A stretch of DNA of 63,085 nt, counting the filler, from Chrysochromulina tobinii (taxonomy: Eukaryota), in assembly GCA_001275005.1 (NCBI GenBank). It is 4 parts of 4 records of this genome, joined end to end, with 100 filler letters (N's around TTAATTAATTAA, not from the genome) between each part and the next. Parts side by side here need not be neighbours in the genome. Positions count along the whole stretch, not along the records: positions 1 to 16,745 come from JWZX01000679.1; 3 more parts are not named here. One strand, written 5' to 3'. Every line of letters begins with the position of its first letter. The stretch's first letter is position 1. Below, piece by piece: positions 2,447 through 16,099 of this stretch. Below the pieces are notes generated by a model, which searched no databases, was not told the DNA's origin, and saw nothing but the letters and a program-made list of their open reading frames with translations. A program made the position numbers and the translations under genes.

Positions 2447-3631
2447 CTACTTCTTTTCTGCCGCCACCGCCCGTGCCGCTGCCACCATCCCCGAATCCGC
2501 CTCCCGACGCAGGCGCGCGTTGAGCTCCACCAAACCGAAGCTTGTCACCCAAGCATCGTACTCAGACGTTACTGCAAAGCCCGACTCAACAAACGGAGGA
2601 ATTCTGAAGGGCAGAGCTCCATGCTTGCTGCGCGTGATCTTGAGCAGGATGAACACGTTTGAAAGCTCGTTGTCGCCCAACGTGTACATGATGCTGTCGA
2701 CCGAAGGCTTGTCGAAAGAAATCTGCTCGCAGACGAGCTGCACATCTGCGCAGCCGCTGATGAGCTCTGACACACCACTCCGACGGATGTTGTTGAGCAA
2801 GTAGCACGCCCCATCCTCTTCAAGAAACGAAGACAGGACGCCAAGCAGCTGTGCAGCACCTTCTATGCTGTAAATGAGCTCGGAGCCAATGATCACGTCG
2901 AACTTCTTGGCTGAGGTCGTCGGCTTCGTGCCATCGGCACGTTCCCTCTTCATGCATTGGCCTTCTTGCAGTTCTTCTTGAAATGGCCATCGGCACGTTG
3001 CCTCCTGAGGTTTTGTCCAGTCGAGATCCCATACCGAGAGTGCGCCTCCGTCGATGGAGCCCAGATTTGCATGCACGTTCTCGAGAAGCAAGTCCAGGAG
3101 CGAGGGCGCTGAGTCATCCACGAAATGGCCCTGAAACTCCGACATTACGATTTCGCGCGGGCCAGCTGATTTGGCAATGGCAAGGCCAAGTAAGCCGCAG
3201 CCAGCTCCAAGCTCGAGCACCGAACGATCCGTAAAGATGTCTAGGTTCTGGAAGGCCCACTGCAACTGTACCAATGCGCCTTCCCACACACGAGAGCCAG
3301 TGTGCGTGCCGCATTCCTTGATCAGCAACGGCGTCACAGCAGTGAGGCTCCCGGACGAGATCCACTTCGCATAGCCGCGGACCTCTCTGCCACCCACTGC
3401 CTCTGAGTGACAACTTTGCTGAAGCGCTTTAGCCGCTCGAGCTTGGTCGGGACCCATCGGCATGCAAGCCACTGACGTGTCCGGCTCTGTCCATGGATCC
3501 TGGTTCAACGCCTCCTCGGTGCTGCAGTACGTCAGAAACGCAGGGAACACGGTGGCAATTGACGACAGCTTCGAGTCGCTAGGCACCAGGATCAGCAGTG
3601 GTTCGTATAGAACCCAAAGTCGAGTCGCCAT
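2447..3631 (-). CDS. Class I SAM-dependent protein-lysine methyltransferase (Methyltransf_16/METTL21-like)
   Basis: Motifs TGSRVWEGAL, VLELGAGCGLLGL, DLDW, FDVIIGSELIY; first ATG (MATRLW) at 3631. Confidence 0.85.
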   Translation of the reverse strand: MATRLWVLYEPLLILVPSDSKLSSIATVFPAFLTYCSTEEALNQDPWTEPDTSVACMPMGPDQARAAKALQQSCHSEAVGGREVRGYAKWISSGSLTAVTPLLIKECGTHTGSRVWEGALVQLQWAFQNLDIFTDRSVLELGAGCGLLGLAIAKSAGPREIVMSEFQGHFVDDSAPSLLDLLLENVHANLGSIDGGALSVWDLDWTKPQEATCRWPFQEELQEGQCMKRERADGTKPTTSAKKFDVIIGSELIYSIEGAAQLLGVLSSFLEEDGACYLLNNIRRSGVSELISGCADVQLVCEQISFDKPSVDSIMYTLGDNELSNVFILLKITRSKHGALPFRIPPFVESGFAVTSEYDAWVTSFGLVELNARLRREADSGMVAAARAVAAEKK

Positions 3632-4042
3632 TGCTGCGCGATCGCGCGGAGGACAAGGATTTAGCGGAGTGCCAGCAGGGCGTGCAGGAAAGGCGCGCGG
3701 GTGGTGGGAACGGGATGCCGAAAAGGTCAGCTCAGAAGAGATTTGCACGCTCGCTACTGAGACCGGGAAGCTCGGTACTGGCGTGGCCTCCCTTGCGCGC
3801 TGCCCAGGGCCGCGTAGGTGGCGTGCGTTCCCGCGCCAACGAAGGGTCCCTGCCTTTCTGGTAAACTCACTTTACGTTAGAATTTAGATGACGCCCGCCG
3901 ACCCATCCCGTCGGACTCGACCCGCGTGACGTAACACAGTACGCATGCCGGTTGCATGCGGGCGACTATATGGGGTCGTTACCCACAAGCGACGCCGTTC
4001 ACTCCGGCTACCCGAAACCCCCTCCACCCTCTGACCTCACAC

Positions 4043-6256
4043 TCACGAAGTTGAAGAAGGCATCGAACCCCCCAACCACTGGTCGGTGACGCTCGCCGCC
4101 ACGACTTCATTCACGAGGAATGCGGCAAGGTCCTGGCTGTCAAAGTAGGACGTGTGGGCTTGCAGCGCGGCCGTGTACTCGAGCGCGGCATCCAACGTAG
4201 ATTCCTGCAGCATCCAGTCCACACGCTCGCCCTGGTTGACGGCGAACCCACCGTGATCGTCGAGTGCACTTGTCGTCGGGTGCGTCCCTGCCGCCGCGGC
4301 CTCCTCCGCGAGCGTATCGATCCCGAAGAGCGACGCCATCGAGTTGAACGAGTCGGTGACAGCCATCTTGGCGCTCTCGGCGGCAGCGCTCACGGCCATC
4401 TTGGCACTTTCGGCTGGATGGCTGAGTGCCATCTGGACGGATTTGCCCGCGGCGCTCGCGACCTGTTGAGCCTGCTGCGCTTGTTGGACGACTCCCTGCA
4501 GGTCCTGGCGCAACTTAATGTGTAGGCGCATCCCACCCTTGCCGGCGCCCGCGTGGGGAACGTACCGTGGCTGCGCATCGAGCGCCTTGCGAGCGCGCGC
4601 CCAGCCATGGCCGCCGCCTCCATCCTCGGCGCCCTCCGTGGATGGGCCCTCCTCATCCGTCGGAGAGAGCAGCGGCTCGAGCCGGTAAGCCACTGGGTCG
4701 TTGCGTGCAAACACGTTGAAGAGGCGAGCACAAGACGGGCGCAGCGAAAACGTCGGGCCGAGCCTGTGGCCACGTACAGCGACAAAGAAAGCCACAGGCG
4801 AGCCAAGGAGCACGAGGGCCGAGATGTGGCAGTTGAGCCGCCCGGGCCCCTCCGCGCTCGCAACGGCAGCGCCCGTGTGGCTGCCGCCGCCGCTTGCGCA
4901 GCTGCTTGCGCCGGCGGTGGGTGCAGCAAGCGCCTCTGGGCGTGCGGCAAGGTTTGATTGGTCGTCGCAGCTGGCCGCCGCCGCGGTAGCCTCGTTCTGC
5001 GCGCGAAGGATGTCAAAGGTGATGAGGGAGCCAAGGGAATGGCCGCACAAGATCACAGGTCCGGCAAAGCCAGGGTGCTGCTGCTGCCACGCGCGATAGA
5101 TCTCGTTGATCCGGGCGACCACGCGTCCCTGGATCGCGAGCCGGTGGTGCGCTTGCTCGTAGAGGAGCACGTCGGCGAGCACCTCGTTGGCGAATTGGCG
5201 GATGAGGGGAGTGGAGCTCAGCGTGATGCGCGACAGGGTGCGAACCGCCTCCTGTGCCGCGCGGTCGCTGCGTACGCCCGTGTCCCAAGTGACAGGCAAG
5301 ATTTCCACACGCCGCAGCTCGGAGGCGCCGTGAGCACTCGCGCCGCCGTGAGCACTCGCGCCGCCGTGAGCGCTCGCGCCGCCGTGGGCGCTCGCAGCCA
5401 CGGCCGCCCTGGCCGCAAGACCTCGCAATTGGTCGCAGCCCGCTTCGATGGTCTTCAGTCCGAGTACGTTGTCGCCCTTGCGCCATAGTGCCTCTCCAAT
5501 GCCGTGGACGAGCAGCACGAGAGCGCTCGGCGGCGCGCTCTCGACGCGGCACTCGTCCTCGGTGAGCGCCGGTAGGCTCGCACCGGCCCACCCTCGCGCA
5601 ATCGAGCACGAAGAGAAGAGAGGTAGCGCGCCCAACCATGACTTGTCGGCCGAGCGCATCTCCGCAGTGACGCCGCCCTTGCCATCCTTGCTCAGCAGGA
5701 CACTGAAGCGCCCATCCGCCACCACCACTCCTGTCGATGGCCTCAACGAGCCCCCGGCGACCGCGGCTGCTGCCATCGCTGCAGCCGCCGCAGAGGCGAG
5801 AGCTCCGGCCTGAGCAACGCCACCCGCATAAATAGCTTCAGCCGATGCGGCAACATCGGCCTGCTGCGCGGCGACCAGCCGTTCCAGGCCGGGACTGATC
5901 TGCTGCATGCGAAGCATCTCTTGCAGCCGCTCCTCCAAATTCACATTGTCGGCTGAGCCAAATGGCTGCCACTGCCCCTCAAGCTTGAAGCACCAGCGAG
6001 AACAGGCCAGCGGCGTAGGCGGCGCTTCGTGGAAGCACGGCACACACTCCCCGGCCCACCGGTTGTCGTTTCCACTCTGGGGCCACAGCCTCGCCTCGGA
6101 TCTGCCGCCGTCAAGAGGCACCTTGCGTGTGCCCGCACAGCGTGCTTTGGCAAGGCGCGTCTGCTCGTGCGGTCGCATGCGAATCCACCTTCCTTCCACG
6201 TGTACTAGCCACGCCTCGGGAACGTCGCCGAGCTTTAGCGTGCTGCTCGAGTACAT
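4043..6256 (-). CDS. DDHD-domain intracellular phospholipase A1 (DDHD1/DDHD2/SEC23IP-like)
   Basis: LVLLVHGIG, RVEILPVTW, lipase box GHSLGS, LGSPVAFF, NVFARNDPVAYRLEP, RVDWMLQE, AHTSYF; likely ATG (MYSSSTL) at 6256; internal ASAHGG repeats. Confidence 0.88.
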   Translation of the reverse strand: MYSSSTLKLGDVPEAWLVHVEGRWIRMRPHEQTRLAKARCAGTRKVPLDGGRSEARLWPQSGNDNRWAGECVPCFHEAPPTPLACSRWCFKLEGQWQPFGSADNVNLEERLQEMLRMQQISPGLERLVAAQQADVAASAEAIYAGGVAQAGALASAAAAAMAAAAVAGGSLRPSTGVVVADGRFSVLLSKDGKGGVTAEMRSADKSWLGALPLFSSCSIARGWAGASLPALTEDECRVESAPPSALVLLVHGIGEALWRKGDNVLGLKTIEAGCDQLRGLAARAAVAASAHGGASAHGGASAHGGASAHGASELRRVEILPVTWDTGVRSDRAAQEAVRTLSRITLSSTPLIRQFANEVLADVLLYEQAHHRLAIQGRVVARINEIYRAWQQQHPGFAGPVILCGHSLGSLITFDILRAQNEATAAAASCDDQSNLAARPEALAAPTAGASSCASGGGSHTGAAVASAEGPGRLNCHISALVLLGSPVAFFVAVRGHRLGPTFSLRPSCARLFNVFARNDPVAYRLEPLLSPTDEEGPSTEGAEDGGGGHGWARARKALDAQPRYVPHAGAGKGGMRLHIKLRQDLQGVVQQAQQAQQVASAAGKSVQMALSHPAESAKMAVSAAAESAKMAVTDSFNSMASLFGIDTLAEEAAAAGTHPTTSALDDHGGFAVNQGERVDWMLQESTLDAALEYTAALQAHTSYFDSQDLAAFLVNEVVAASVTDQWLGGSMPSSTS

Positions 6257-6457
6257 GCTGCGCGCTCGGGTCACAGCTGTGCGAGGTCGGCGGGCGCTCG
6301 TCTTCCGTCTCCAGGAAATCAAGACACAAGAGGGCAGAGCGCGGAGCTGTGAAAACGACAGACGTTCACAGCTCTCCATGAACTCGATGTCCTAGCCCTT
6401 CCTTTTACGAACTACACCGGGTTCGGCACCCCTGATTCAGACCCTCGGAGCCAGCCA

Positions 6458-7900: not shown

Positions 7901-10900
7901 ATGACGTTGCTCGAGCTGTGCGCCGCCTCCAAGTGGGAGGAGGTGCTCAAGCTCAAGAGCTTTCCTCCCGAGCAGGTGCACCTGTCCACCAAAGACGAGG
8001 GATGGACGCCGCTACACTATGCCTGCATCGAAGAGCAGCTTGCCGTGGTCAAGCGGCTGCTCAAGGAGGGCGCTGATCCGTCCTCGGGCGACAGTGAGGG
8101 GACGACAGCCGTCCACATCGCGGCGACGCTGCCTTCTGTCGCGATGCTGCGAGCGCTCTTTGAGGGTGCTGCCGTGAAAGTCAACCCCGATCAGGGTGAC
8201 AGGAATGGCAGCACGGCACTGCATCTTGCCGCGGACGTGGTGGAGAAAGACGCAATCGCTGAGGCCGCCGAATGCATCGCGGTGCTTCTCGAAAGGGGGG
8301 CTTCGGCTTCGGCCAAAGACAAGAGCGGCAAGACGCCGCTCGACCTCGCCAAGCACGACGAGATTCGTGACGCGCTCGCTGGCACGAAGCTGTCCGCTCG
8401 CGTGGCACGCCGGCTCGCAGGCAAAAAGGGCGGGGCGTCCGACGACGCGTCAGCCGACGCCGTCGCCGGCCCTACCACCGCCCCCGCATCAGCGCCGAGC
8501 GCCGAGCCACCCTCGACACCACGTGGTTCCCTCAAGCGCGGGAGCAAGCGCACGCAGGTGGGCGTGCTGAATGTCGCTGGTGCCGATTCGAGCGCGAGCG
8601 GCGGCGCCAAGGCGGAGAAGGCGAAGAAGGCGGACGAGGCAGCCGCCGCGACCGAAACCAAGGCGGGGCTGCAACGGCGGCGCCGCCCAGGCACGGGTGC
8701 CAGCGCTGCGGGCGGCGGCGCTGGCGCGGCCGCTGCGAGTGGCAGTGGCAGCCCCAAAAAGGAGCGCCGGACGCGCACGAGTGGAGGCGCGGCCGCAGGT
8801 GCGGCGGGCGGTTCCGGCGTCGGCGACGCCTCCGCAGAGGCGCAGACGAGCCGCCTTGAGCAGATGCTCATCGAGGAGCTCGAGGCCGACGATGCGGCGG
8901 GCGGCATCACATTCGACTTGGCGCTCGAGCTGCTGCCGCCCGAGCACGCCAAGGACGCGCGTCGCCGCGCCGCCGCTTCCACGAAGAAAAAGGGCGGCGA
9001 GGGAGCTGGCGCCGAGCAAGATCCCGAGGAGGCGATCGCGTATGACGTGGCGAGTGGCGACGCTACGCTGACGCGCACGGCGCTGCTGCAGCGCGTGCGT
9101 GCGCCCTCGGTGGGACTGGAGACGCGCTTGGTGTGGCACCCAACAGCGGAGAATGTGGCTTTCCTCCTCGTGGGCGCGAGCCTCCCGCGGCTGGCGCGCG
9201 AGGCCGAGCGGATCGACTGGCCCATGCAGCTGCGCCCCGGTCTCGAGGAGCGGTTGCACCTCGAGCGCGAGCAGCAGCATGGGGGCCAGGATGAGGCGGC
9301 GGCCGAGGCTGTAGCAGCCGAGCTCGAGGCGCTCGAGGCGCTCGACGGCAGGGACACCGCGTACGCCCCCTACCGACGGCGCGTGCACCGCCTCTACCAG
9401 CTCGGCGCCCCTCCCCACGTCTTCGCGTGCGCCGCGCGCGCACACATCCTCACATCCATCCTCGAGGCACCGCAAGCGGTGGGCGGCGCAGAGCTCTCTC
9501 TGTCGACCCTCGAGCGCTCGCGCGTCGTGCAGCAGGTCTTCGCGCTGCATGACATGCGCGAGCGGCGCGCGCTTGAGGAGCGATGGTCCGCCTCGGCCTC
9601 GCTCGGCCTCGCGCCCGCCCCGCTCACCGAGCTCTACAATTATTTTGGCGCCGAGTACGCGCTCTACTTCGCCTTCCTGCGCCGCTTCTCACAGTGGCTC
9701 TGGGCGCCGGCGGCGCTCGGGCTCGTGCTCTTCGTGTTTAACGAGACCGAGTACGCGGGGCAGGAGTCGGTCTGGCAGGCCCTCTACTGCCTGCTCATCG
9801 TGCTCTGGGCCTCGGCGTTCCTGCAGCACTGGACGCGCACCCAGGCCGGCCTCTGCCACCAGTGGGCGATCAACGACGGCCACGGGCCGCACGCGGCTGC
9901 AAGCGACCCGACCGCGACGGCGGGCGAGGCGCCCGCGGCCGAGCGCGAGGAGTTCGTGGCTGCCAACCACGCGGTCGGCTTCTACACGTCGAACGACGAC
10001 TTTGTGGCCCTCGATGCAGAGGTGGTGCCAGATGGCGTGCCGTTGCCGCTCGTGGGCGTCTTCGGCCGTCGGGAGCGGCTGCGGCGGCTCATGCTCTCGT
10101 GGGCCGTGCTCGTCGCATTCGTGGCGGCCGCCGTGTGCGCGCAGCTCGGGCTGCTCCTCGGCCGATCGCTGCTCATCACGCGGGGGCCCAGCGCCTGGTG
10201 GAGCGGCCAGATCCTCGGCAGCCTCTTCACCGCCGTTGTGGTCGAACTCTTCGACGCGGTCCTCCGACCACTCGTCGACGCGCTGCTCGCATGGCAGAAC
10301 CACCGCTCCGCCGCGCGCCATGAAGTCCACTTTGCACAGCAGCTCTTCTTCGCCGCCTTCTGCAACCGCTTCTTCTCGCCGCTGTACCTGACGCTGCTCA
10401 AGCCGCTCTCGCTCCACTACCTCTTCCACAGCGCCGACACGCCCGGCGCCGTGCTCGAGGTTTGCTACGATCGCGACGGCAGTCCGTCCGACAGCTGCGC
10501 CGAGGAGCTCACCACGCTCGTGGGCGCGCTGGTCATCGTGAATTGCGTCGTGCAGAACGGGATCGAGTACGCGTCGGCCACGCGCGCCCTCAGCCGGCTG
10601 CAGCGGACACCGGGCGGCCGCGTGACCCATGAGGCGTCGATGGGCTCGGCCCAGTCGGCTGGCGGCGAGTTCTCGGAGCTCATCATGTCGTACGCGATGG
10701 TGGCTCTCTTCGGTGGCGCGTTCCTGCCCGCCGCCGCGTTCGCGCTGATCAACAACGCACTCGAGGCGCGCCTGGACTCGCATGCCTTCCTTCGCTGCCA
10801 GCAGCGGCCGCGTATGCAGCTCTCGCACCTGATGGCGACGTGGCGTCCAGTGCTCCAGCTCATCTCGCTGCTCGCGATCGTGACGAACACGGTGCTCGTG

Positions 10901-13795
10901 TGCCACGCATTCACGACGCTGCCCATGCTCTTCGGGGCACGCGGCGGGCACGAGTACGCGATGGGGATGGTCATCGAGCACGTGCTGCTCGCGCTCAAGC
11001 TGCTCCTCGACCTGAGCTTGGCGGACGTGCCAGCGGAAAGGATCGCCGAAACTGCCAAGCAGCGCAAGCTGCTGCGCTACGCCGAGCTCGCGCGCAGCCC
11101 GCTGCCCGCGCCGCCGCGCCTCGCCGCCGACGCCGAGGCGGCGGCGGACGCGGCGCGACAGGCGGAGGAGGAGGCCGAGGAGGACGATGAGCCTGTGGAC
11201 GAGCCGCACAAGGAGGAGAAGCTCTCAGAGCTCGGTCTGCTCCGCTCCTTTATGCCGGGGCCCAATGAGGAGAACGGCGGCGCCGGCGCGCGCGACATTG
11301 CGCGCAAGCTGCAGGAGGCCTCGCAGCCCCTGCCCGACACGCGCGGTGCCTCGCCTGCTGAGGTCGAGCGCATCGCCAAGCAGCAGCGCAAGCAGCTCAA
11401 GCAGCGGCGCAAGCTCGTGCTGCAGCTCGGCTGGACGCCGCGCCGTGCGCTCGCGCGCGCCTCGTCGAGCCTCGGGTTCACCGACGTCATCTGCCTGCTT
11501 CCGATGCTGATGCTCTGGCTCGTCATGATCGCGATCGGCATCCTGGGCGGCCAGTACGGCAATCCCGAGCGCCTCTTTTTCGGCATCGACTACGAGCGCA
11601 ACACGTGCGGCTCGACTAACGCGTACAGCTACCCGCTGCGCTACGACACGACGCGCTCTGAGACCTTCCCGTACGCGATCCGCCTGCCCAATGCACGTTT
11701 CTCAAGCGTCCTCGACGATGCCACGCAGGCGCAGCTCCGGGCGCGCCAGCTGCGCACGGGTGAGCGCAACCTCGCGGGGAGCAAGAACTGGTGGTACAGT
11801 CCGGCGAGCGACTCACACTGGCTGCTCGCGTACGCGGACCCGGCCACGCGCCTTGGCGTGTGCGTAGCCGCGTGCCCTCGGCCTCGGCAGCTCGGCTCTG
11901 AGCAGCTCTGCACCTACGACGCGAGCCCCGTAGCCGTGGGCGGCACTGGCGCCACCGCCAGCGCCTCCAGGCGCTGCTATCCCGCGTACGCGAGCGTCGC
12001 GATGCACGGCTATTGCGTCCCCACCACGCCCGCGCCGCAGGCGGCTTACCACGCGGCAGGCGTCAACATCTCCGCCTCCGAGCTCAACGCCCTTCGCACC
12101 TCGCTTCTCCACGAGGACGGGCGCTACTTTGACGCCATCTTTGGCGATGTGGTCCTCGTGTGGCAACTGCTGCTCGGCTGCCCGATCGTGGCCGCGGTGC
12201 TCGCGTTTGCGTGGGCCTACGGCTCGGTGATCCAGCCCGCGGCCCTCTACGGGCTCGCTGTGCTCATTTGCGTCGTCTCGTCCTCCGGCCTGACCTACGT
12301 CTTCTGGAGCGGAGGCGAGAGGTTTGCGGAGGACGTGGCCGCGAGCGACCTAGGCGCAAGCGCCCAAGACGACGGCCTCTGGATCGGGCGCAATCGCGCA
12401 TGGCTCGAGAACACGGGCTACGTGCTCGTCGCGTGCACCGCCGCCCTGCCCATCGCGAGCGTTCTGCTCGGGCGCTTGTGCCTGCCCTCGTTGCCGCTGC
12501 TACAGGTGGCGGGTCCGCTGCTGCTGGGCACACCGGCCGCGATGGTCGGTCCGGCGCTCTGCGTGATCGCGCAGCTGCTCTTCGCGGCGCTCTGGGTCTG
12601 GGGCGCGGCGTACCTCGCTTCGAGCGGCATGGTCGAGCTCACGCACGCCGAGGGCTACGCGCGCCCCACGTTCGACTCCGGCGTCAAGCTGCTCCTGATC
12701 GTCTGGGCCCTTGGCGGGATCTGGACGTTCGCCTTCATACGCCACCTCGGGCTCCTCGCCGCCGCGGGCCCGCTCGCGCGCGGCTATTGGCTGTCGGCCG
12801 AGCTGCGCGCGCAGCTGCCCGCGCCGCCGCTGTACGTGCGGTTGCTAGGTCCGTGGGTGCGAGTGGGCTCGGCGGCGGTGGGCGCGACGCTCCACTGCTC
12901 GGGCGCAAGCGCTCTCGTCGCCGTGCTGCAGAGCTTCGGCGTCCACCGGCTGGATGCGCTCGATGAGGCTGGGTACGTGAGTGTCGCGCTCTTTGGCACC
13001 GGGTATGTCGAAGGCTCGCGCTGGGCCACGTCGATCACCAGCCGCTTTGTGCCGCGCTTGCTCATGATGCAGGCCCGCTGCGGGCTCTATCTAAGTTTCT
13101 GCAAGCTTGCGTGCGCCATGGGGGCCACGGCGGTCGCCGCGGCCTTTCTAGCTGGCCATGAAGACTATGCCAGGCCGAGCGCGTTCGCGGCGGAGGCGGG
13201 CATCGCCTCCATTGTGATGCCACTCTTTGTCATCTTCGGCTTCACCTTCCAGATCGTGTCGACGGTGCTCTCGCCCGTGCAGCTCATGCTCTCGGCGGCC
13301 GTGCAGAGCTGGTGCCTCGACTACCAGCAGAACGTCGTCGAGCAGCAGCTGGGCGGCGCCACGTGGATGATGGGGGCCAGTGACCCCGAGGGCTCGCTCT
13401 CGCTCTTGATGGAGCTGCACGAGCTGCTCCTCGATGAGCTCGCTCAGGCGGCAAGCGAGCGCGAGCAGCAGCAGAGAGAGCTTGCGCAGCGCGCCGCCGC
13501 CGCCGCGCGCCGCGCCGCGCGCGATGCCGAGGGCATCGTCGCCCCGACTCGGAAGCGCGCGGACCAGAAGGTGGACCCTGGCACCGTTGTGGCTGAGGAG
13601 GTGAATCCCGGCAACGCCGTGGCCCGACCTGCCGCGTCCGCACCAATCTCGATCGAGAAGGACGAGGATGAGGACGAGTACGCGGACGTCGAGCTGACCG
13701 CGGCCGACGGCGGCGACGTTGAGGAGGCGCGTGACCTGAGCGCGGTAATGCCAGTGGAGTCGTCGAACCGGAGGCGGCGCCCGCCGAAGGCGTGA
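7901..13795 (+). CDS. Ankyrin repeat - anoctamin (TMEM16) - choline transporter-like (CTL/SLC44) fusion protein, ~1964 aa
   Basis: Ankyrin repeats (GWTPLHYA, GTTAVHIA, GSTALHLA, GKTPLDLA). Anoctamin motifs FALHD, YNYFGAEYALYFAFL, WQNHRS, EFSEL, NNALEARLD, IVTN, EH..DVP. CTL motifs FTDVICLL, GNPERLFFGIDYERNTCG, VCVAACP, YCVP. One uninterrupted ORF. Confidence 0.88.
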   Translation: MTLLELCAASKWEEVLKLKSFPPEQVHLSTKDEGWTPLHYACIEEQLAVVKRLLKEGADPSSGDSEGTTAVHIAATLPSVAMLRALFEGAAVKVNPDQGDRNGSTALHLAADVVEKDAIAEAAECIAVLLERGASASAKDKSGKTPLDLAKHDEIRDALAGTKLSARVARRLAGKKGGASDDASADAVAGPTTAPASAPSAEPPSTPRGSLKRGSKRTQVGVLNVAGADSSASGGAKAEKAKKADEAAAATETKAGLQRRRRPGTGASAAGGGAGAAAASGSGSPKKERRTRTSGGAAAGAAGGSGVGDASAEAQTSRLEQMLIEELEADDAAGGITFDLALELLPPEHAKDARRRAAASTKKKGGEGAGAEQDPEEAIAYDVASGDATLTRTALLQRVRAPSVGLETRLVWHPTAENVAFLLVGASLPRLAREAERIDWPMQLRPGLEERLHLEREQQHGGQDEAAAEAVAAELEALEALDGRDTAYAPYRRRVHRLYQLGAPPHVFACAARAHILTSILEAPQAVGGAELSLSTLERSRVVQQVFALHDMRERRALEERWSASASLGLAPAPLTELYNYFGAEYALYFAFLRRFSQWLWAPAALGLVLFVFNETEYAGQESVWQALYCLLIVLWASAFLQHWTRTQAGLCHQWAINDGHGPHAAASDPTATAGEAPAAEREEFVAANHAVGFYTSNDDFVALDAEVVPDGVPLPLVGVFGRRERLRRLMLSWAVLVAFVAAAVCAQLGLLLGRSLLITRGPSAWWSGQILGSLFTAVVVELFDAVLRPLVDALLAWQNHRSAARHEVHFAQQLFFAAFCNRFFSPLYLTLLKPLSLHYLFHSADTPGAVLEVCYDRDGSPSDSCAEELTTLVGALVIVNCVVQNGIEYASATRALSRLQRTPGGRVTHEASMGSAQSAGGEFSELIMSYAMVALFGGAFLPAAAFALINNALEARLDSHAFLRCQQRPRMQLSHLMATWRPVLQLISLLAIVTNTVLVCHAFTTLPMLFGARGGHEYAMGMVIEHVLLALKLLLDLSLADVPAERIAETAKQRKLLRYAELARSPLPAPPRLAADAEAAADAARQAEEEAEEDDEPVDEPHKEEKLSELGLLRSFMPGPNEENGGAGARDIARKLQEASQPLPDTRGASPAEVERIAKQQRKQLKQRRKLVLQLGWTPRRALARASSSLGFTDVICLLPMLMLWLVMIAIGILGGQYGNPERLFFGIDYERNTCGSTNAYSYPLRYDTTRSETFPYAIRLPNARFSSVLDDATQAQLRARQLRTGERNLAGSKNWWYSPASDSHWLLAYADPATRLGVCVAACPRPRQLGSEQLCTYDASPVAVGGTGATASASRRCYPAYASVAMHGYCVPTTPAPQAAYHAAGVNISASELNALRTSLLHEDGRYFDAIFGDVVLVWQLLLGCPIVAAVLAFAWAYGSVIQPAALYGLAVLICVVSSSGLTYVFWSGGERFAEDVAASDLGASAQDDGLWIGRNRAWLENTGYVLVACTAALPIASVLLGRLCLPSLPLLQVAGPLLLGTPAAMVGPALCVIAQLLFAALWVWGAAYLASSGMVELTHAEGYARPTFDSGVKLLLIVWALGGIWTFAFIRHLGLLAAAGPLARGYWLSAELRAQLPAPPLYVRLLGPWVRVGSAAVGATLHCSGASALVAVLQSFGVHRLDALDEAGYVSVALFGTGYVEGSRWATSITSRFVPRLLMMQARCGLYLSFCKLACAMGATAVAAAFLAGHEDYARPSAFAAEAGIASIVMPLFVIFGFTFQIVSTVLSPVQLMLSAAVQSWCLDYQQNVVEQQLGGATWMMGASDPEGSLSLLMELHELLLDELAQAASEREQQQRELAQRAAAAARRAARDAEGIVAPTRKRADQKVDPGTVVAEEVNPGNAVARPAASAPISIEKDEDEDEYADVELTAADGGDVEEARDLSAVMPVESSNRRRRPPKA

Positions 13796-14241: not shown

Positions 14242-14701
14242 CCTCTCACCCCAATCCGGAATCACAAGAGTGGACGACCCCTAGATACCTCCTGCCGGAT
14301 ATCCGCGCATCGATATGCGACACCAATGCCATCGTCCAGCAAAAGTGGTCGAGGTGCTGCTCAACCTCAAGTGACTGCTCAAGCACAGCCCTTCGCCCGC
14401 GGTGCACCTCGAGGTGCTCGGCCGCCGATGGCTCGCGCTCGCTCGCAACGAATCCGTGTCCAACCTCACGAGCACCCTCTTGGGAGACCGAGCCGATCGA
14501 CGATCATCATTCATCAACAAGATAGTAACAAGATTGATGGTGAGCTGCTCCCGGCAGGCTGCGCCGACGGGTTGCGCGACGACCTTGCACGCCTTTTCGG
14601 GGCTTGTGGGTGTGTTTCTGTTCGAGAGGGCCCTGAAACGAACGTACCGGTACGAACGAAGTTACGGCGGGAAATGATTTAGTTTTGTGAGCGAGAATTC
14701 T

Positions 14702-16099
14702 ATGTCTCTAATCTGCGATGTTGCGGAGCAGACTAGCTCGACTCCGTGCGTATTCCAACGCAGTTTTGGTTGCCGCGTCGGAGATGACGGAGTACGACAA
14801 CTGTGGATCCGCCATGGATGTGGTGGAACATTTGACTGTGATGGGAAACGCGTGGTTTGTACAAGACCGAGAGCCCTTCCGAGAGCTGATGAGTTGCATC
14901 ATTGTTCATGCGAACGCTCGTTCCTAGACACGCTTCCGGGCGGGGTTTGCGTCCGTGGAGGGCATACGCTCAGCAGCTCAGTAGCATTCTGGCATTTTAT
15001 CCACGGGCACTTGCTGCCAACGTTCGAGCTGATATCCACGCAAGGGCATTACCGGCCAGATCTGCAGTTGGTATTCGAGCAAAAGATATTCAACACATGG
15101 AGTAGACGATATATGGACTTCTACCGTGCCCTCTTCGATCTACCTGTTCAAATTGGCACACGTTGCAGTGGCACGCCGAGTCATTGGCTTGTAAAACCTT
15201 ATCCACGGTTTGACATGACGATCATGCGAGGTGACAATATTAAGAACATTGAAGAGTTCAAGCATGCGGACAACAGCTCGATTGCTGCCATGTGTGAGCA
15301 CATTCCGTCATTGCATATGGTCGCCGCTGCACGTCGCTATGCCCGGCCTCGCACCCAGAGGCTGTTGCAGATCGTGTTTGTACATCGCAACGCCACCGCC
15401 GAGTCGACACCTGAGGGGACGGTCCGAGGCATCGAGAACGTGGAGGAGGTAGTCGCTGATTTGAAGAGCTTGGCGCGAGGACGAGGAGCGATCCTCAAGC
15501 AGGTGGTCTTGGAGCGCTTGCCACCGCTCGCGCAGGTCGACTTGCTCCTGGAGACCGACGTGCTCATCTCGTACCACGGCTCGGGCCTCGGCGGTGGTCA
15601 CGTATGGATGCCTCCCGGGGGAGTCGTCGTCGAGATCATGCCACATAAGTTTGACTACTGCGTCGTGGCTACCTGTGTGGCACACTCTGGCAAAGCCCAC
15701 TTAATGGTGACCACGGCAGCCACACGGCTGGCAAGGAGGTGGAAGCCTGGGGGATGGTATGCCAAGGTTGGGGGGCCGCCTGGTCTCCGCAAGGTCCACT
15801 TGCCGTCGACCTTGCACACCATGCTCAGCCTTGCTCTTGCGGTTCCAAAGGAGATCACACCGCGCGAGGCCATACAAACTGCGGCTGCGCACCTGTGCAC
15901 GGAATCTGTCGGCAGAGGGCGCAAGGATTCTATTGGCGAGACGTGTAGACTCGCTTGCCAAGGCAAAAGCCTTCAAGTCTGGGAGAAGAAAACTGGGACT
16001 CGACGAGCCGCCCGCCCAGAGACCTACGATCGAGACTTACTACGTGCGAACCAACACAACTATAACACAACGTACATCAATGTAACAACGATATCGTAG
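14702..16099 (+). CDS. Glycosyltransferase family 61-like protein with an N-terminal Cys-rich module
   Basis: FWHFIHGHLLP, R.I.N..EV, QVDLLLETDVLISYHGSGL...WMPPGGVVVEI are typical of GT61; N-terminal C..QRSFGC...LWIRHGCGGTFDC. The true start may lie upstream. Confidence 0.75.
   Translation: MSLICDVAEQTSSTPCVFQRSFGCRVGDDGVRQLWIRHGCGGTFDCDGKRVVCTRPRALPRADELHHCSCERSFLDTLPGGVCVRGGHTLSSSVAFWHFIHGHLLPTFELISTQGHYRPDLQLVFEQKIFNTWSRRYMDFYRALFDLPVQIGTRCSGTPSHWLVKPYPRFDMTIMRGDNIKNIEEFKHADNSSIAAMCEHIPSLHMVAAARRYARPRTQRLLQIVFVHRNATAESTPEGTVRGIENVEEVVADLKSLARGRGAILKQVVLERLPPLAQVDLLLETDVLISYHGSGLGGGHVWMPPGGVVVEIMPHKFDYCVVATCVAHSGKAHLMVTTAATRLARRWKPGGWYAKVGGPPGLRKVHLPSTLHTMLSLALAVPKEITPREAIQTAAAHLCTESVGRGRKDSIGETCRLACQGKSLQVWEKKTGTRRAARPETYDRDLLRANQHNYNTTYINVTTIS

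What the first reader, a model, noticed from the sequence alone, without database searches (positions are those of the whole stretch)
7901..13795. Ankyrin-anoctamin-choline transporter-like triple fusion in one ORF
Seen: a single stop-free ORF with ankyrin repeats (~7990-8380), a full TMEM16/anoctamin unit (~9120-11030) and a CTL/SLC44 unit (~11477-13324). The anoctamin retains residues equivalent to the Ca2+ site (QNGIE, EFSEL, NNALEARLD). The CTL half keeps the N-terminal TDV/G.P.RL..G.D..NTCG motif and Cys loop but looks divergent and shortened around RVGSAAVG / GYVSVALFG. Known: TMEM16 proteins are Ca2+-activated channels or scramblases, and SLC44 proteins are choline/ethanolamine transporter-like; I know them as separate proteins. 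Inference: Ca2+-gated scrambling or ion flux physically coupled to headgroup transport.
Basis: partly seen in the sequence, partly recalled or inferred. Interest (0 to 1): 0.8.

Follow-up and report, generated by a model that had tools for sequence, protein, structure and literature searches.

The report
Haptophyte ankyrin-TMEM16-CTL fusion protein
One gene of the alga Chrysochromulina encodes ankyrin repeats, a TMEM16/anoctamin membrane protein and a choline-transporter-like (CTL/SLC44) membrane protein in a single chain, an arrangement shared by other haptophyte algae that likely ties calcium-gated lipid scrambling to the still unexplained CTL family.

Summary
Window 7901-13795 (+) is one stop-free 1,964-codon frame. 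It carries ankyrin repeats, a full TMEM16/anoctamin unit (Pfam 2.7e-59) and a full but divergent CTL/SLC44 unit (Pfam 6.6e-15). The predicted CTL fold matches human CTL1 at Z 17.1.

The organism is a Chrysochromulina (haptophyte). The same three-part architecture occurs in C. parva, Prymnesium parvum and Diacronema lutheri, and the anoctamin+CTL pair in five unnamed metagenome proteins. That spans both haptophyte classes.

The 140-residue linker is itself conserved: 44-61% identity in three partial relatives that read from anoctamin into CTL. It also keeps coding GC3, so the fusion is real and not a read-through of two genes. A single transcript was not shown directly, because RNA contigs leave 11099-11190 unbridged. 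The NCBI model's three in-frame "introns" are probably coding.

The TM7 and TM8 Ca2+-site acidic residues are kept; the TM6 register is ambiguous.

"Headgroup transport" is doubtful. A 2026 study found no choline transport by CTL1, PNS1 or CherI. None of CTL1's nine pocket residues is identical here.

Best reading (inferred): a Ca2+-activated scramblase with a built-in CTL lipid-handling module. No searched paper describes the fusion. It is a new variant of known kinds.

The parts
7901..13795 (+). Whole coding sequence: 1,964 codons plus stop, apparently without introns.
   Evidence: Searches show the open frame. It is co-linear with the 1,964-aa C. parva gene model and the 1,966-aa P0002. N- and C-termini align with relatives. 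In-frame GC3 is 0.72-0.98 across the ORF, against 0.50-0.72 in the flanks.
7946..8380 (+). Cytosolic ankyrin repeats (about 3-4).
   Evidence: Pfam Ank_2 4.1e-16 (best stretch residues 16-92, two stretches), Ank 5.2e-15 and Ank_5 2.4e-13. The end near residue 160 is read from the sequence.
8408..9100 (+). Ala/Gly/Ser-rich low-complexity spacer, residues 170-400.
   Evidence: Composition is A 23%, G 14%, S 9%. It aligns poorly among relatives. It contains the NCBI model's first 'intron', 8558-8839.
9137..9565 (+). TMEM16 N-terminal cytosolic domain (Anoct_dimer), residues 413-555.
   Evidence: Pfam PF16178 at 1.6e-4, 22.1 bits against a cut-off of 22. Conserved in Prymnesium. Contains model 'intron' 2, 9383-9466.
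9635..11056 (+). TMEM16/anoctamin transmembrane domain, residues 579-1052.
   Evidence: Pfam PF04547 at 2.7e-59. PDB sequence search: ANO10 7.5e-28, ANO1 3.8e-19, nhTMEM16 6.8e-19. The AF2 model of residues 651-1850 matches TMEM16K 6r7y at Foldseek E 2.9e-10, prob 1.00.
10553..10567 (+). TM6 motif QNGIE (residues 885-889), candidate Ca2+ ligands.
   Evidence: QNxxE is present in 7 of 8 prymnesiophyte-type rows and QxxE in 3 of 5 pavlovophyte-type rows. The register against TMEM16A N650/E654 is ambiguous.
10667..10681 (+). TM7 motif EFSEL (E923, E926).
   Evidence: Aligned to TMEM16A E702 and E705. The second E is present in 12 of 13 family rows and the first acidic residue in 11 of 13.
10751..10777 (+). 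TM8 motif NNALEARLD (E955, D959).
   Evidence: Aligned to TMEM16A E734 and D738. Both acidic residues are present in 12 of 13 family rows.
11057..11476 (+). Conserved cytosolic linker between the two membrane units, residues 1053-1192. Motifs: DVPA, KQRKLLRYAEL, LSELGLLRSF, WTPxxAL.
   Evidence: Identity over about 155 residues is 61% (P0168), 58% (P0009), 44% (P0011), 32.5% (P0008) and 28% (P0004). GC3 is 0.88-0.92. The only Met in it (M1118) is not conserved. In the AF2 model the C-terminal part of the linker is helical with block pLDDT of 80-91.
11477..13450 (+). CTL/SLC44-type unit with ten predicted helices, residues 1193-1850.
   Evidence: AF2 model has pLDDT 88.3 and pTM 0.89. VIA-align: hCTL1 9qu3 at Z 17.1 (323 of 362 residues aligned), 7wwb at Z 15.6, yeast PNS1 9f63 at Z 15.2, next best Z 6.1. 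Pfam PF04515 covers residues 1532-1807. A profile including canonical CTLs hits CTL1 at 1.8e-101.
11576..12073 (+). Cys-containing extracellular or lumenal domain between M1 and M2 of the CTL unit (about residues 1226-1391).
   Evidence: The AF2 model has beta strands between helices M1 and M2. The motif G.P.RL..G.D..NTCG aligns with canonical CTLs. Human CTL1 has the same placement (PMC13160678 section 8).
13451..13792 (+). Acidic, Ala-rich C-terminal tail ending in RRRRPP (13769-13786).
   Evidence: Composition. RRRRP lies within the last 10 residues in the window protein, P0002, P0004, P0006 and P0007, but not in P0008.

Best explanation
This is one real, apparently intronless gene of a Chrysochromulina (haptophyte) that encodes ankyrin repeats, a complete TMEM16/anoctamin and a complete but divergent CTL/SLC44 membrane unit in a single 1,964-residue chain; it is predicted to act as a Ca2+-activated lipid scramblase whose covalently attached CTL unit would work in the same membrane as a lipid- or headgroup-handling partner rather than as an independent choline importer.

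Shown:
- the open frame and the three domain families;
- the CTL fold and the TMEM16 fold for TM3-10;
- the conserved linker;
- the same architecture in four named haptophyte species of two classes, and the anoctamin+CTL pair in five unnamed metagenome proteins;
- retention of the TM7 and TM8 Ca2+-site acidic residues.

Inferred:
- TMEM16's C-terminus and CTL's N-terminus both face the cytosol, so the 140-residue linker would be cytosolic and both units would sit in one bilayer.
- TMEM16 proteins are dimers, so the protein would likely be a dimer carrying two CTL units.
- Ca2+ binding at TM6-8 would open the TMEM16 groove for lipids, possibly with ion leak.
- The CTL unit's family is known for a conserved hydrophobic groove holding lipid or sterol densities. 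It would supply, sense or bind choline-type or other lipids next to the scrambling path.
- The ankyrin repeats would anchor or regulate the assembly.
For: Fusion is real.
- Co-linear Pfam hits lie in one frame.
- All four relatives returned for the full length carry PF04547, Ank and PF04515. They are C. tobinii, a 99%-identical ENA protein, Prymnesium parvum and Diacronema lutheri.
- The C. parva model is also 1,964 aa.
- 8 of 21 scanned representatives carry Anoctamin plus Choline_transpo at E <= 0.001, and 4 of those also carry Ank.
- The partial ORFs P0168, P0009 and P0011 run from anoctamin TM7-10 through the linker into CTL M1.
- The linker is 44-61% identical to those three, and its GC3 is 0.88-0.92.
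- M1118 is not conserved, so there is no conserved internal start codon.
- RNA-library contigs cover both halves with no splice joints.

TMEM16 half looks competent.
- Pfam 201.7 bits.
- The best solved sequence match is the ER scramblase TMEM16K, at 7.5e-28, and it is also the top Foldseek match.
- E923/E926 and E955/D959 align with TMEM16A E702/E705 and E734/D738. They are kept in 11-12 of 13 family rows.
- A Dictyostelium TMEM16 homolog forms a scramblase (PMC5812556, title and abstract seen in the listing).

CTL half is a full CTL fold but an unlikely choline carrier.
- Z 17.1, 15.6 and 15.2 to CTL1, CTL1 and PNS1, with the next best at 6.1.
- PMC13160678 reports no choline or ethanolamine transport by CTL1, PNS1 or CherI, lipid/sterol densities in a conserved groove, and speculates about a lipid-homeostasis role.
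- 0 of 9 CTL1 pocket residues are identical here (hand-mapped).
Against: - No experiment and no direct test of activity exists for either half.
- A single transcript is not shown. In the six runs laid, no listed contig piece spans 11099-11190. The contigs are short and could include DNA.
- The stop-free linker alone is weak evidence, since 17% of such windows are open.
- The TM6 ligand register is ambiguous. HMMER places Q885 opposite E654.
- Scramblase versus channel cannot be told from sequence.
- The pocket comparison is weak evidence, because CTL1 and PNS1 themselves share only one pocket residue. The paper does not exclude transport under other conditions.
- The two-domain AF2 model has pTM 0.69. 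That neither proves nor excludes a fixed interface between the halves.
- The unnamed metagenome proteins have no taxonomy, so 'haptophyte-wide' rests on four named species.
Confidence: 0.55

Rival explanations
1. The CTL half is an active transporter of choline, ethanolamine or a related onium compound. The fusion would then couple Ca2+-gated scrambling or ion flux to headgroup uptake for phospholipid synthesis.
For: The full CTL fold is present. PF04515 scores above its cut-off. Earlier literature summarised in PMC13160678 reported choline or ethanolamine uptake for CTL1, CTL2 and CherI. Five of the nine pocket positions carry conservative replacements: N>D, Q>E, N>Q, E>Q, M>L (hand-mapped).
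Against: CTL1, PNS1 and CherI showed no uptake in oocytes, and the bowl fold fits no known transport mechanism. 0 of 9 pocket residues are identical, and the only pocket residue shared by CTL1 and PNS1 (Tyr495) is Ala here. The Cys-rich M7-M8 segment is missing. PF04515 scores 55.6 bits here against 321-384 bits for canonical CTLs.
Confidence: 0.2
2. The TMEM16 half works mainly as a Ca2+-activated ion channel (anion or cation), not as a scramblase. The CTL and ankyrin parts would serve in targeting or regulation, for example in Ca2+ signalling at the flagellar, haptonemal or plasma membrane.
For: The same Ca2+-site residues serve channels and scramblases. ANO1 aligns at 3.8e-19, and TMEM16A structures are among the Foldseek matches.
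Against: The best sequence and structure matches are scramblases: TMEM16K first, then TMEM16F and nhTMEM16. From recall, dedicated TMEM16 Cl- channels are known only from vertebrate TMEM16A/B. Sequence cannot decide this.
Confidence: 0.1
3. A mainly structural, non-catalytic membrane scaffold or contact-site tether, in the manner of yeast Ist2 (from recall: a TMEM16 homologue with a long tail and a basic end that binds another membrane). The ankyrin repeats and the basic C-terminal RRRRPP would be the attachment points.
For: There are long disordered spacers and a conserved basic motif at the very C-terminus. N-terminal ankyrin repeats are present. One family member (P0044) has lost the TM7 and TM8 acidic residues yet keeps the architecture.
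Against: The Ca2+-site residues are kept in 11-12 of 13 family rows, which argues for a working Ca2+ site. The Ist2 comparison is recalled and was not tested here. An Arg-rich end could equally be an ER-retention signal.
Confidence: 0.08
4. An artefact: two neighbouring genes (ankyrin-anoctamin and CTL) that merely share a frame across a stop-poor, GC-rich spacer and were merged by ORF reading.
For: 17% of 138-codon windows in this window are stop-free. An ATG (M1118) lies in the linker. In the six runs laid, no listed contig piece spans 11099-11190.
Against: The linker is conserved as protein at 44-61% identity in relatives and keeps coding GC3. The same order and frame occur in Prymnesium, Diacronema and five unnamed metagenome proteins at 24-57% identity. 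M1118 is R, Y or R in relatives. Three partial ORFs from relatives read straight across the junction.
Confidence: 0.04

Closest known systems
Human TMEM16K/ANO10 (ER lipid scramblase) and fungal nhTMEM16/afTMEM16
   Same: TMEM16 transmembrane domain with an N-terminal cytosolic domain. Best solved matches by sequence (5oc9, 7.5e-28) and by fold (6r7y, E 2.9e-10). TM7 ExxE and TM8 ExxxD Ca2+ residues are kept.
   Different: Here the TMEM16 carries N-terminal ankyrin repeats and a second ten-helix membrane protein fused to its C-terminus. Sequence identity is only 15-19% in the structural alignments. The TM6 ligand register is unclear.
Human CTL1/SLC44A1 (7wwb, 9qu3), yeast Pns1 (9f63), Arabidopsis CherI
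   Same: Ten-helix bowl fold with an extracellular domain between M1 and M2 (Z 17.1, 15.6 and 15.2). The N-terminal CTDV...G.P.RL..G.D..N.CG motif and the G(S/T)...G motif are shared with canonical CTLs.
   Different: Fused behind a TMEM16. PF04515 scores only 55.6 bits. About 26 residues, including the Cys-rich segment before M8, are missing. 0 of 9 CTL1 pocket residues are identical.
Database records of the same family: C. tobinii 'D chain transport protein' (P0003), C. parva Chrpa1 model (P0165), Prymnesium parvum AB1Y20_007472 (P0004), Diacronema lutheri KFE25_008260 (P0005)
   Same: The same three-part architecture. P0003 is 100% identical to the window's product in all aligned columns.
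   Different: These records carry only automatic names. No paper found describes them. P0003 lacks three in-frame pieces that its gene model treats as introns.
Yeast Ist2 (TMEM16 homologue acting as an ER-plasma-membrane tether; recalled, not tested)
   Same: A TMEM16 core with a long C-terminal extension and a basic end.
   Different: Ist2's extension is a disordered tail, not a second membrane protein. There are no ankyrin repeats. The resemblance is from memory only.

Membership tests
TMEM16/anoctamin (PF04547) | Sequence match to the family model above the curated cut-off over nearly its whole length. | tested here: met
   201.7 bits against 28, covering profile positions 2-458 of 460.
TMEM16/anoctamin (PF04547) | TMEM16 transmembrane fold. 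| tested here: met
   An AF2 model of residues 651-1850 (TM3-10 only; TM1-2 not modelled) has TMEM16K, F, A, nhTMEM16 and afTMEM16 filling the listed Foldseek matches. Best is 6r7y at E 2.9e-10, prob 1.00, rmsd 6.8 over 371 columns.
TMEM16/anoctamin (PF04547) | Acidic Ca2+ ligands in TM7 (ExxE) and TM8 (ExxxD). | tested here: met
   E923, E926, E955 and D959 align with TMEM16A E702, E705, E734 and D738. They are kept in 11-12 of 13 family rows.
TMEM16/anoctamin (PF04547) | TM6 Asn/Glu Ca2+ ligands (TMEM16A N650, E654). | tested here: inconclusive
   HMMER pairs N880 with N650 and Q885 with E654. The family-conserved motif QNxxE (7 of 8 prymnesiophyte-type rows) would fit if shifted by four residues.
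TMEM16/anoctamin (PF04547) | Ca2+-dependent lipid scrambling or ion conduction; homodimer. | not testable with these tools
   Needs reconstitution, electrophysiology and a structure.
CTL/SLC44 (PF04515) | Sequence match to the family model above the curated cut-off. | tested here: met
   55.6 bits against 26.9, covering profile positions 26-324 of 326. This is weak beside the 321-384 bits of canonical CTLs.
CTL/SLC44 (PF04515) | Ten-helix bowl fold with an extracellular domain between M1 and M2. | tested here: met
   The model has pLDDT 88.3. Z 17.1 to 9qu3 (323 of 362 residues aligned, model residues 29-694), Z 15.6 to 7wwb and Z 15.2 to PNS1; the next entry is at Z 6.1.
CTL/SLC44 (PF04515) | N-terminal TM1 motif and Cys-containing loop shared with canonical CTLs. 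| tested here: met
   FTDV...GNPERLFFGIDYERNTCG aligns with CTDV...G.P.RL.YG.DY.GN.CG of P0064, P0072 and P0122.
Canonical CTL1-like subgroup (proposed choline carriers) | CTL1 putative pocket residues Q404, K491, N494, Y495, Q498, N533, D537, E591, M592. | tested here: not met
   The window has L, H, D, A, E, Q, G, Q, L at these positions, so 0 of 9 are identical (hand-mapped; residue list from PMC13160678 section 8). This is not a family-defining feature: CTL1 and PNS1 share only Tyr495.
Canonical CTL1-like subgroup (proposed choline carriers) | Cys-rich segment before M8. | tested here: not met
   Absent in all prymnesiophyte-type rows. There are 28 residues between the flanking motifs here against 54 in P0064.
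Canonical CTL1-like subgroup (proposed choline carriers) | Choline or ethanolamine transport. | not testable with these tools
   This is disputed even for CTL1, PNS1 and CherI.
Ankyrin repeat proteins | Ank-family profile matches above the cut-offs. | tested here: met
   Ank_2 59.7 bits against 27.3, Ank 55.2 against 21.1 and Ank_5 50.5 against 27.

The most novel reading that the evidence does not exclude
The haptophyte fusion is a Rosetta stone for the whole CTL/SLC44 family. On this reading CTL proteins are not choline carriers. They are partners or co-catalysts of TMEM16-type lipid scramblases. Unfused CTLs and TMEM16s would then cooperate physically in other eukaryotes too, for example CTL1/2 with TMEM16K/F in animals, Pns1 with Ist2 in yeast, and CherI with the plant TMEM16.
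Probability: 0.15. Interest if true: 0.85.

Novelty: new variant of a known kind. Interest (0 to 1): 0.6.

Why it matters
What CTL/SLC44 proteins do is an open question. A 2026 structural and biochemical study found no choline transport and could only speculate about lipid homeostasis (PMC13160678).

A fusion kept in both haptophyte classes, with a conserved linker, is the classical kind of evidence that two proteins work together. Here the partner is a TMEM16, the family of Ca2+-gated lipid scramblases. That gives a concrete and testable hypothesis for CTL function. It also provides a natural single-chain construct for reconstitution and cryo-EM.

From general knowledge: haptophytes are globally important, bloom-forming and partly toxic algae with unusual membrane lipids. 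A large Ca2+-regulated lipid-handling protein specific to them is of physiological interest in its own right.

The finding also corrects the public C. tobinii gene model.

Tried and rejected
- Whole-genome look-up: no genome is held for this window.
- Transcript continuity: the six runs laid (X1, X2, X3, X9; X3, X9, X11, X15) gave only short contigs. No listed piece spans 11099-11190, a GC-rich, low-complexity stretch where X15 shows unrelated high-depth pieces with loose ends. This says nothing either way about a single mRNA.
- Complex prediction of TMEM16 TM3-10 (residues 725-1052) against the CTL unit (residues 1190-1850): verdict 'no answer', score 0.00 against a mark of 0.34, and the alignments were not used. 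This is no evidence for or against contact.
- Two-domain AF2 model (residues 651-1850): pTM 0.69. No inter-domain error map is available, so it is inconclusive on a fixed interface.
- Profile A3 against the PDB was swamped by ankyrin/DARPin hits, and no TMEM16 alignment was printed.
- A term search of the TMEM16K paper for Ca2+-ligand residues found none, so the TM6 register stays open.
- The 'shorter' homologue search across the junction gave five unnamed proteins and no new named taxa.
- ESM Atlas search of the junction: best scores 0.78-0.79, below the lead threshold.
- Earlier-findings look-ups: none by words, and one unrelated note on an intron elsewhere in this genome.
Foldseek 'pdb' was used instead.
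- A prokaryotic or viral origin was rejected. All close relatives are haptophyte proteins.
Full report
**The observation**

Between 7859 and 13795 the + strand is open for 1,978 codons. The first ATG is at 7901, giving 1,964 residues. The region is 68-71% G+C, and such DNA is poor in stop codons. Across the six frames of this window, 2,125 of 12,534 windows of 138 codons (17%) are stop-free. An open frame alone therefore proves little.

The content of the frame is what counts. Pfam finds, in order:
- ankyrin repeats (Ank_2 at 4.1e-16, best stretch residues 16-92);
- the TMEM16 N-terminal domain (Anoct_dimer, residues 413-555, 22.1 bits against a cut-off of 22);
- a nearly full-length Anoctamin domain (residues 579-1052, 201.7 bits, profile positions 2-458 of 460);
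- Choline_transpo (residues 1532-1807, 55.6 bits against 26.9).

**Organism and gene model**

The product is 100% identical, in every aligned column, to a Chrysochromulina tobinii protein named 'D chain transport protein' (P0003, 1,797 aa). That protein lacks three pieces. The pieces are 8558-8839, 9383-9466 and 11027-11161. Each begins with GT, ends with AG and is a multiple of three in length. They are therefore predicted in-frame introns.

They are probably coding, for these reasons:
- The C. parva model (1,964 aa) and a 99%-identical ENA protein (1,966 aa) keep them.
- The second and third pieces align with Prymnesium and other relatives.
- RNA-library contigs run unspliced across two donor sites. 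These are X9 record 27 (9285-9466) and X2 record 13 (10853-11098).
- X1 record 2 runs 76 bases into the first piece.
- No splice joint was reported in either laying.

**Is the fusion real?**

Several lines of evidence say yes.

1. All four full-length relatives found carry the same three families: C. tobinii, the ENA protein, Prymnesium parvum (2,104 aa, 37% identity) and Diacronema lutheri (2,095 aa, 26%). Diacronema belongs to Pavlovophyceae and Chrysochromulina to Prymnesiophyceae. The architecture therefore spans both classes of Haptophyta.
2. An exhaustive HMMER search with residues 851-1964 found 1,388 proteins at E <= 0.001. I scanned 21 of them, or of the earlier hits, with Pfam. Eight carry Anoctamin plus Choline_transpo: P0004, P0005, P0008, P0023, P0029, P0033, P0044 and P0046. 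P0046's CTL hit is below Pfam's cut-off. Four of the eight also carry Ank.
3. By BLAST the eight fall into a prymnesiophyte-type group and a Diacronema-like group.
4. Three partial ORFs from relatives read straight from anoctamin TM7-10 through the linker into CTL M1. They are P0168, P0009 and P0011, at 44-61% identity.
5. The linker (residues 1053-1192) is conserved as protein: 61%, 58%, 44%, 32.5% and 28% identity to P0168, P0009, P0011, P0008 and P0004. Shared motifs are DVPA, KQRKLLRYAEL, LS(D/E)LGLLRSF and WTPxxA.
6. In-frame GC3 stays at 0.88-0.92 through the linker, against 0.50-0.72 in the flanks.
7. The only Met in the linker (M1118) is R, Y or R in relatives, so there is no conserved internal start.

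A direct proof of one mRNA is still missing. In the six runs laid, no listed contig piece spans 11099-11190. I put the read-through artefact at about 4%.

**The TMEM16 half**

The best solved sequence matches are ANO10/TMEM16K (7.5e-28), ANO1 and nhTMEM16. An AF2 model of residues 651-1850 has pLDDT 79.9 and pTM 0.69. Its best Foldseek match is TMEM16K (6r7y, E 2.9e-10), followed by TMEM16F, TMEM16A, nhTMEM16 and afTMEM16.

In the alignment with TMEM16A, EFSEL pairs with E702 and E705, and NNALEARLD pairs with E734 and D738 (numbering counted from the printed chain positions). These acidic residues are kept in 11-12 of 13 family rows. P0044 has lost them.

TM6 is ambiguous. HMMER pairs Q885 with E654. 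The family-conserved motif is QNxxE, present in 7 of 8 prymnesiophyte-type rows. It would match N650 and E654 if shifted by four residues.

**The CTL half**

Sequence evidence alone is modest: CTL1 at 3.8e-4. The fold is clear. An AF2 model of residues 1150-1870 has pLDDT 88.3 and pTM 0.89. It aligns with human CTL1 at Z 17.1 (323 of 362 residues), with a second CTL1 entry at Z 15.6, and with yeast PNS1 at Z 15.2. The next entry scores Z 6.1. Foldseek agrees: only those three entries have E <= 0.001.

The unit has M1, a Cys-containing domain between M1 and M2, and nine further helices, as described for CTL1. It is nevertheless a divergent branch:
- The Cys-rich segment before M8 is missing. 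There are 28 residues between the flanking motifs here against 54 in a canonical CTL (hand count).
- By my hand mapping of the profile alignment, none of the nine CTL1 pocket residues is identical.

**What is known about CTLs**

I read sections 8, 10 and 11 of PMC13160678 (2026). The authors found no choline or ethanolamine uptake by CTL1, PNS1 or CherI in oocytes. They describe a bowl fold that fits no known transport mechanism. They saw lipid- or sterol-like densities in a conserved hydrophobic groove. They speculate about a regulatory or lipid-homeostasis role, while not excluding transport under other conditions.

It also makes the partner in this fusion, a lipid scramblase family, more telling.

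**Mechanism (inferred)**

Both junction ends face the cytosol: the TMEM16 C-terminus (family knowledge) and the CTL N-terminus (topology). The linker would therefore be cytosolic, and both units would lie in one membrane.

I propose a Ca2+-activated scramblase whose attached CTL unit binds, senses or feeds lipids beside the scrambling path. The ankyrin repeats would anchor or regulate the assembly. My confidence in the whole statement is 0.55. Rivals are:
- an active choline-type carrier coupled to scrambling (0.2);
- a Ca2+-activated ion channel (0.1);
- an Ist2-like scaffold (0.08);
- an artefact (0.04).

**Novelty**

The proteins are in public databases under automatic names. Six full-text searches found no description of an anoctamin-CTL fusion. 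Neither did term searches inside the anoctamin-superfamily survey PMC5868767 or the C. tobin genome paper PMC4580454. Subscription-only papers and InterPro architecture tables were not searchable.

I rate the finding a new variant of known kinds. Its interest is as a natural 'Rosetta stone' for the disputed CTL family.

Noticed in passing
window 8558-8839, 9383-9466, 11027-11161: The public C. tobinii gene model (P0003) removes these three in-frame GT..AG pieces as introns. They are kept in the C. parva model. The second and third are conserved as protein in relatives, and RNA-library contigs run into them unspliced. They are probably coding.
   Followed up: partly
window 4043-6379 (-): An upstream 778-aa ORF on the other strand carries a DDHD domain (1.2e-29), the domain of phosphatidic-acid-preferring phospholipase A1-type proteins, so it is also lipid-related. 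Other neighbours are a lysine methyltransferase-like ORF (2447-3748, -) and a GT61 glycosyltransferase-like ORF (14687-16099, +).
   Followed up: no
window 13769-13786: A basic RRRRP(P) motif lies within the last 10 residues of the window protein, P0002, P0004 (Prymnesium), P0006 and P0007, but not P0008. It could be an Arg-based retention signal or a lipid-binding end.
   Followed up: partly
P0044 (1,778 aa, unnamed metagenome protein): This is a Diacronema-like family member that keeps the anoctamin+CTL architecture but has lost the TM7 and TM8 acidic Ca2+ residues (AMNAL and NNFNSMRGA).
   Followed up: partly
P0036 (2,374 aa, unnamed): This protein has five Anoctamin-profile stretches and two Anoct_dimer stretches (1,214 bits). 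It appears to hold about three TMEM16 units in tandem in one chain, without a CTL.
   Followed up: no
P0015 (879 aa, unnamed): An F5/8 type C (discoidin) domain is followed by a CTL C-terminal half that is 47-54% identical to that of the fusion protein P0008. It may be another architecture of the fused-type CTL, or a mis-called ORF.
   Followed up: no
window 8923 and 11415 (run X9): One RNA-library contig (depth 12.2) has pieces lying at 11415 and back at 8923, with 21 other letters between them (table 5c). It is probably a chimera or a low-complexity match.
   Followed up: no
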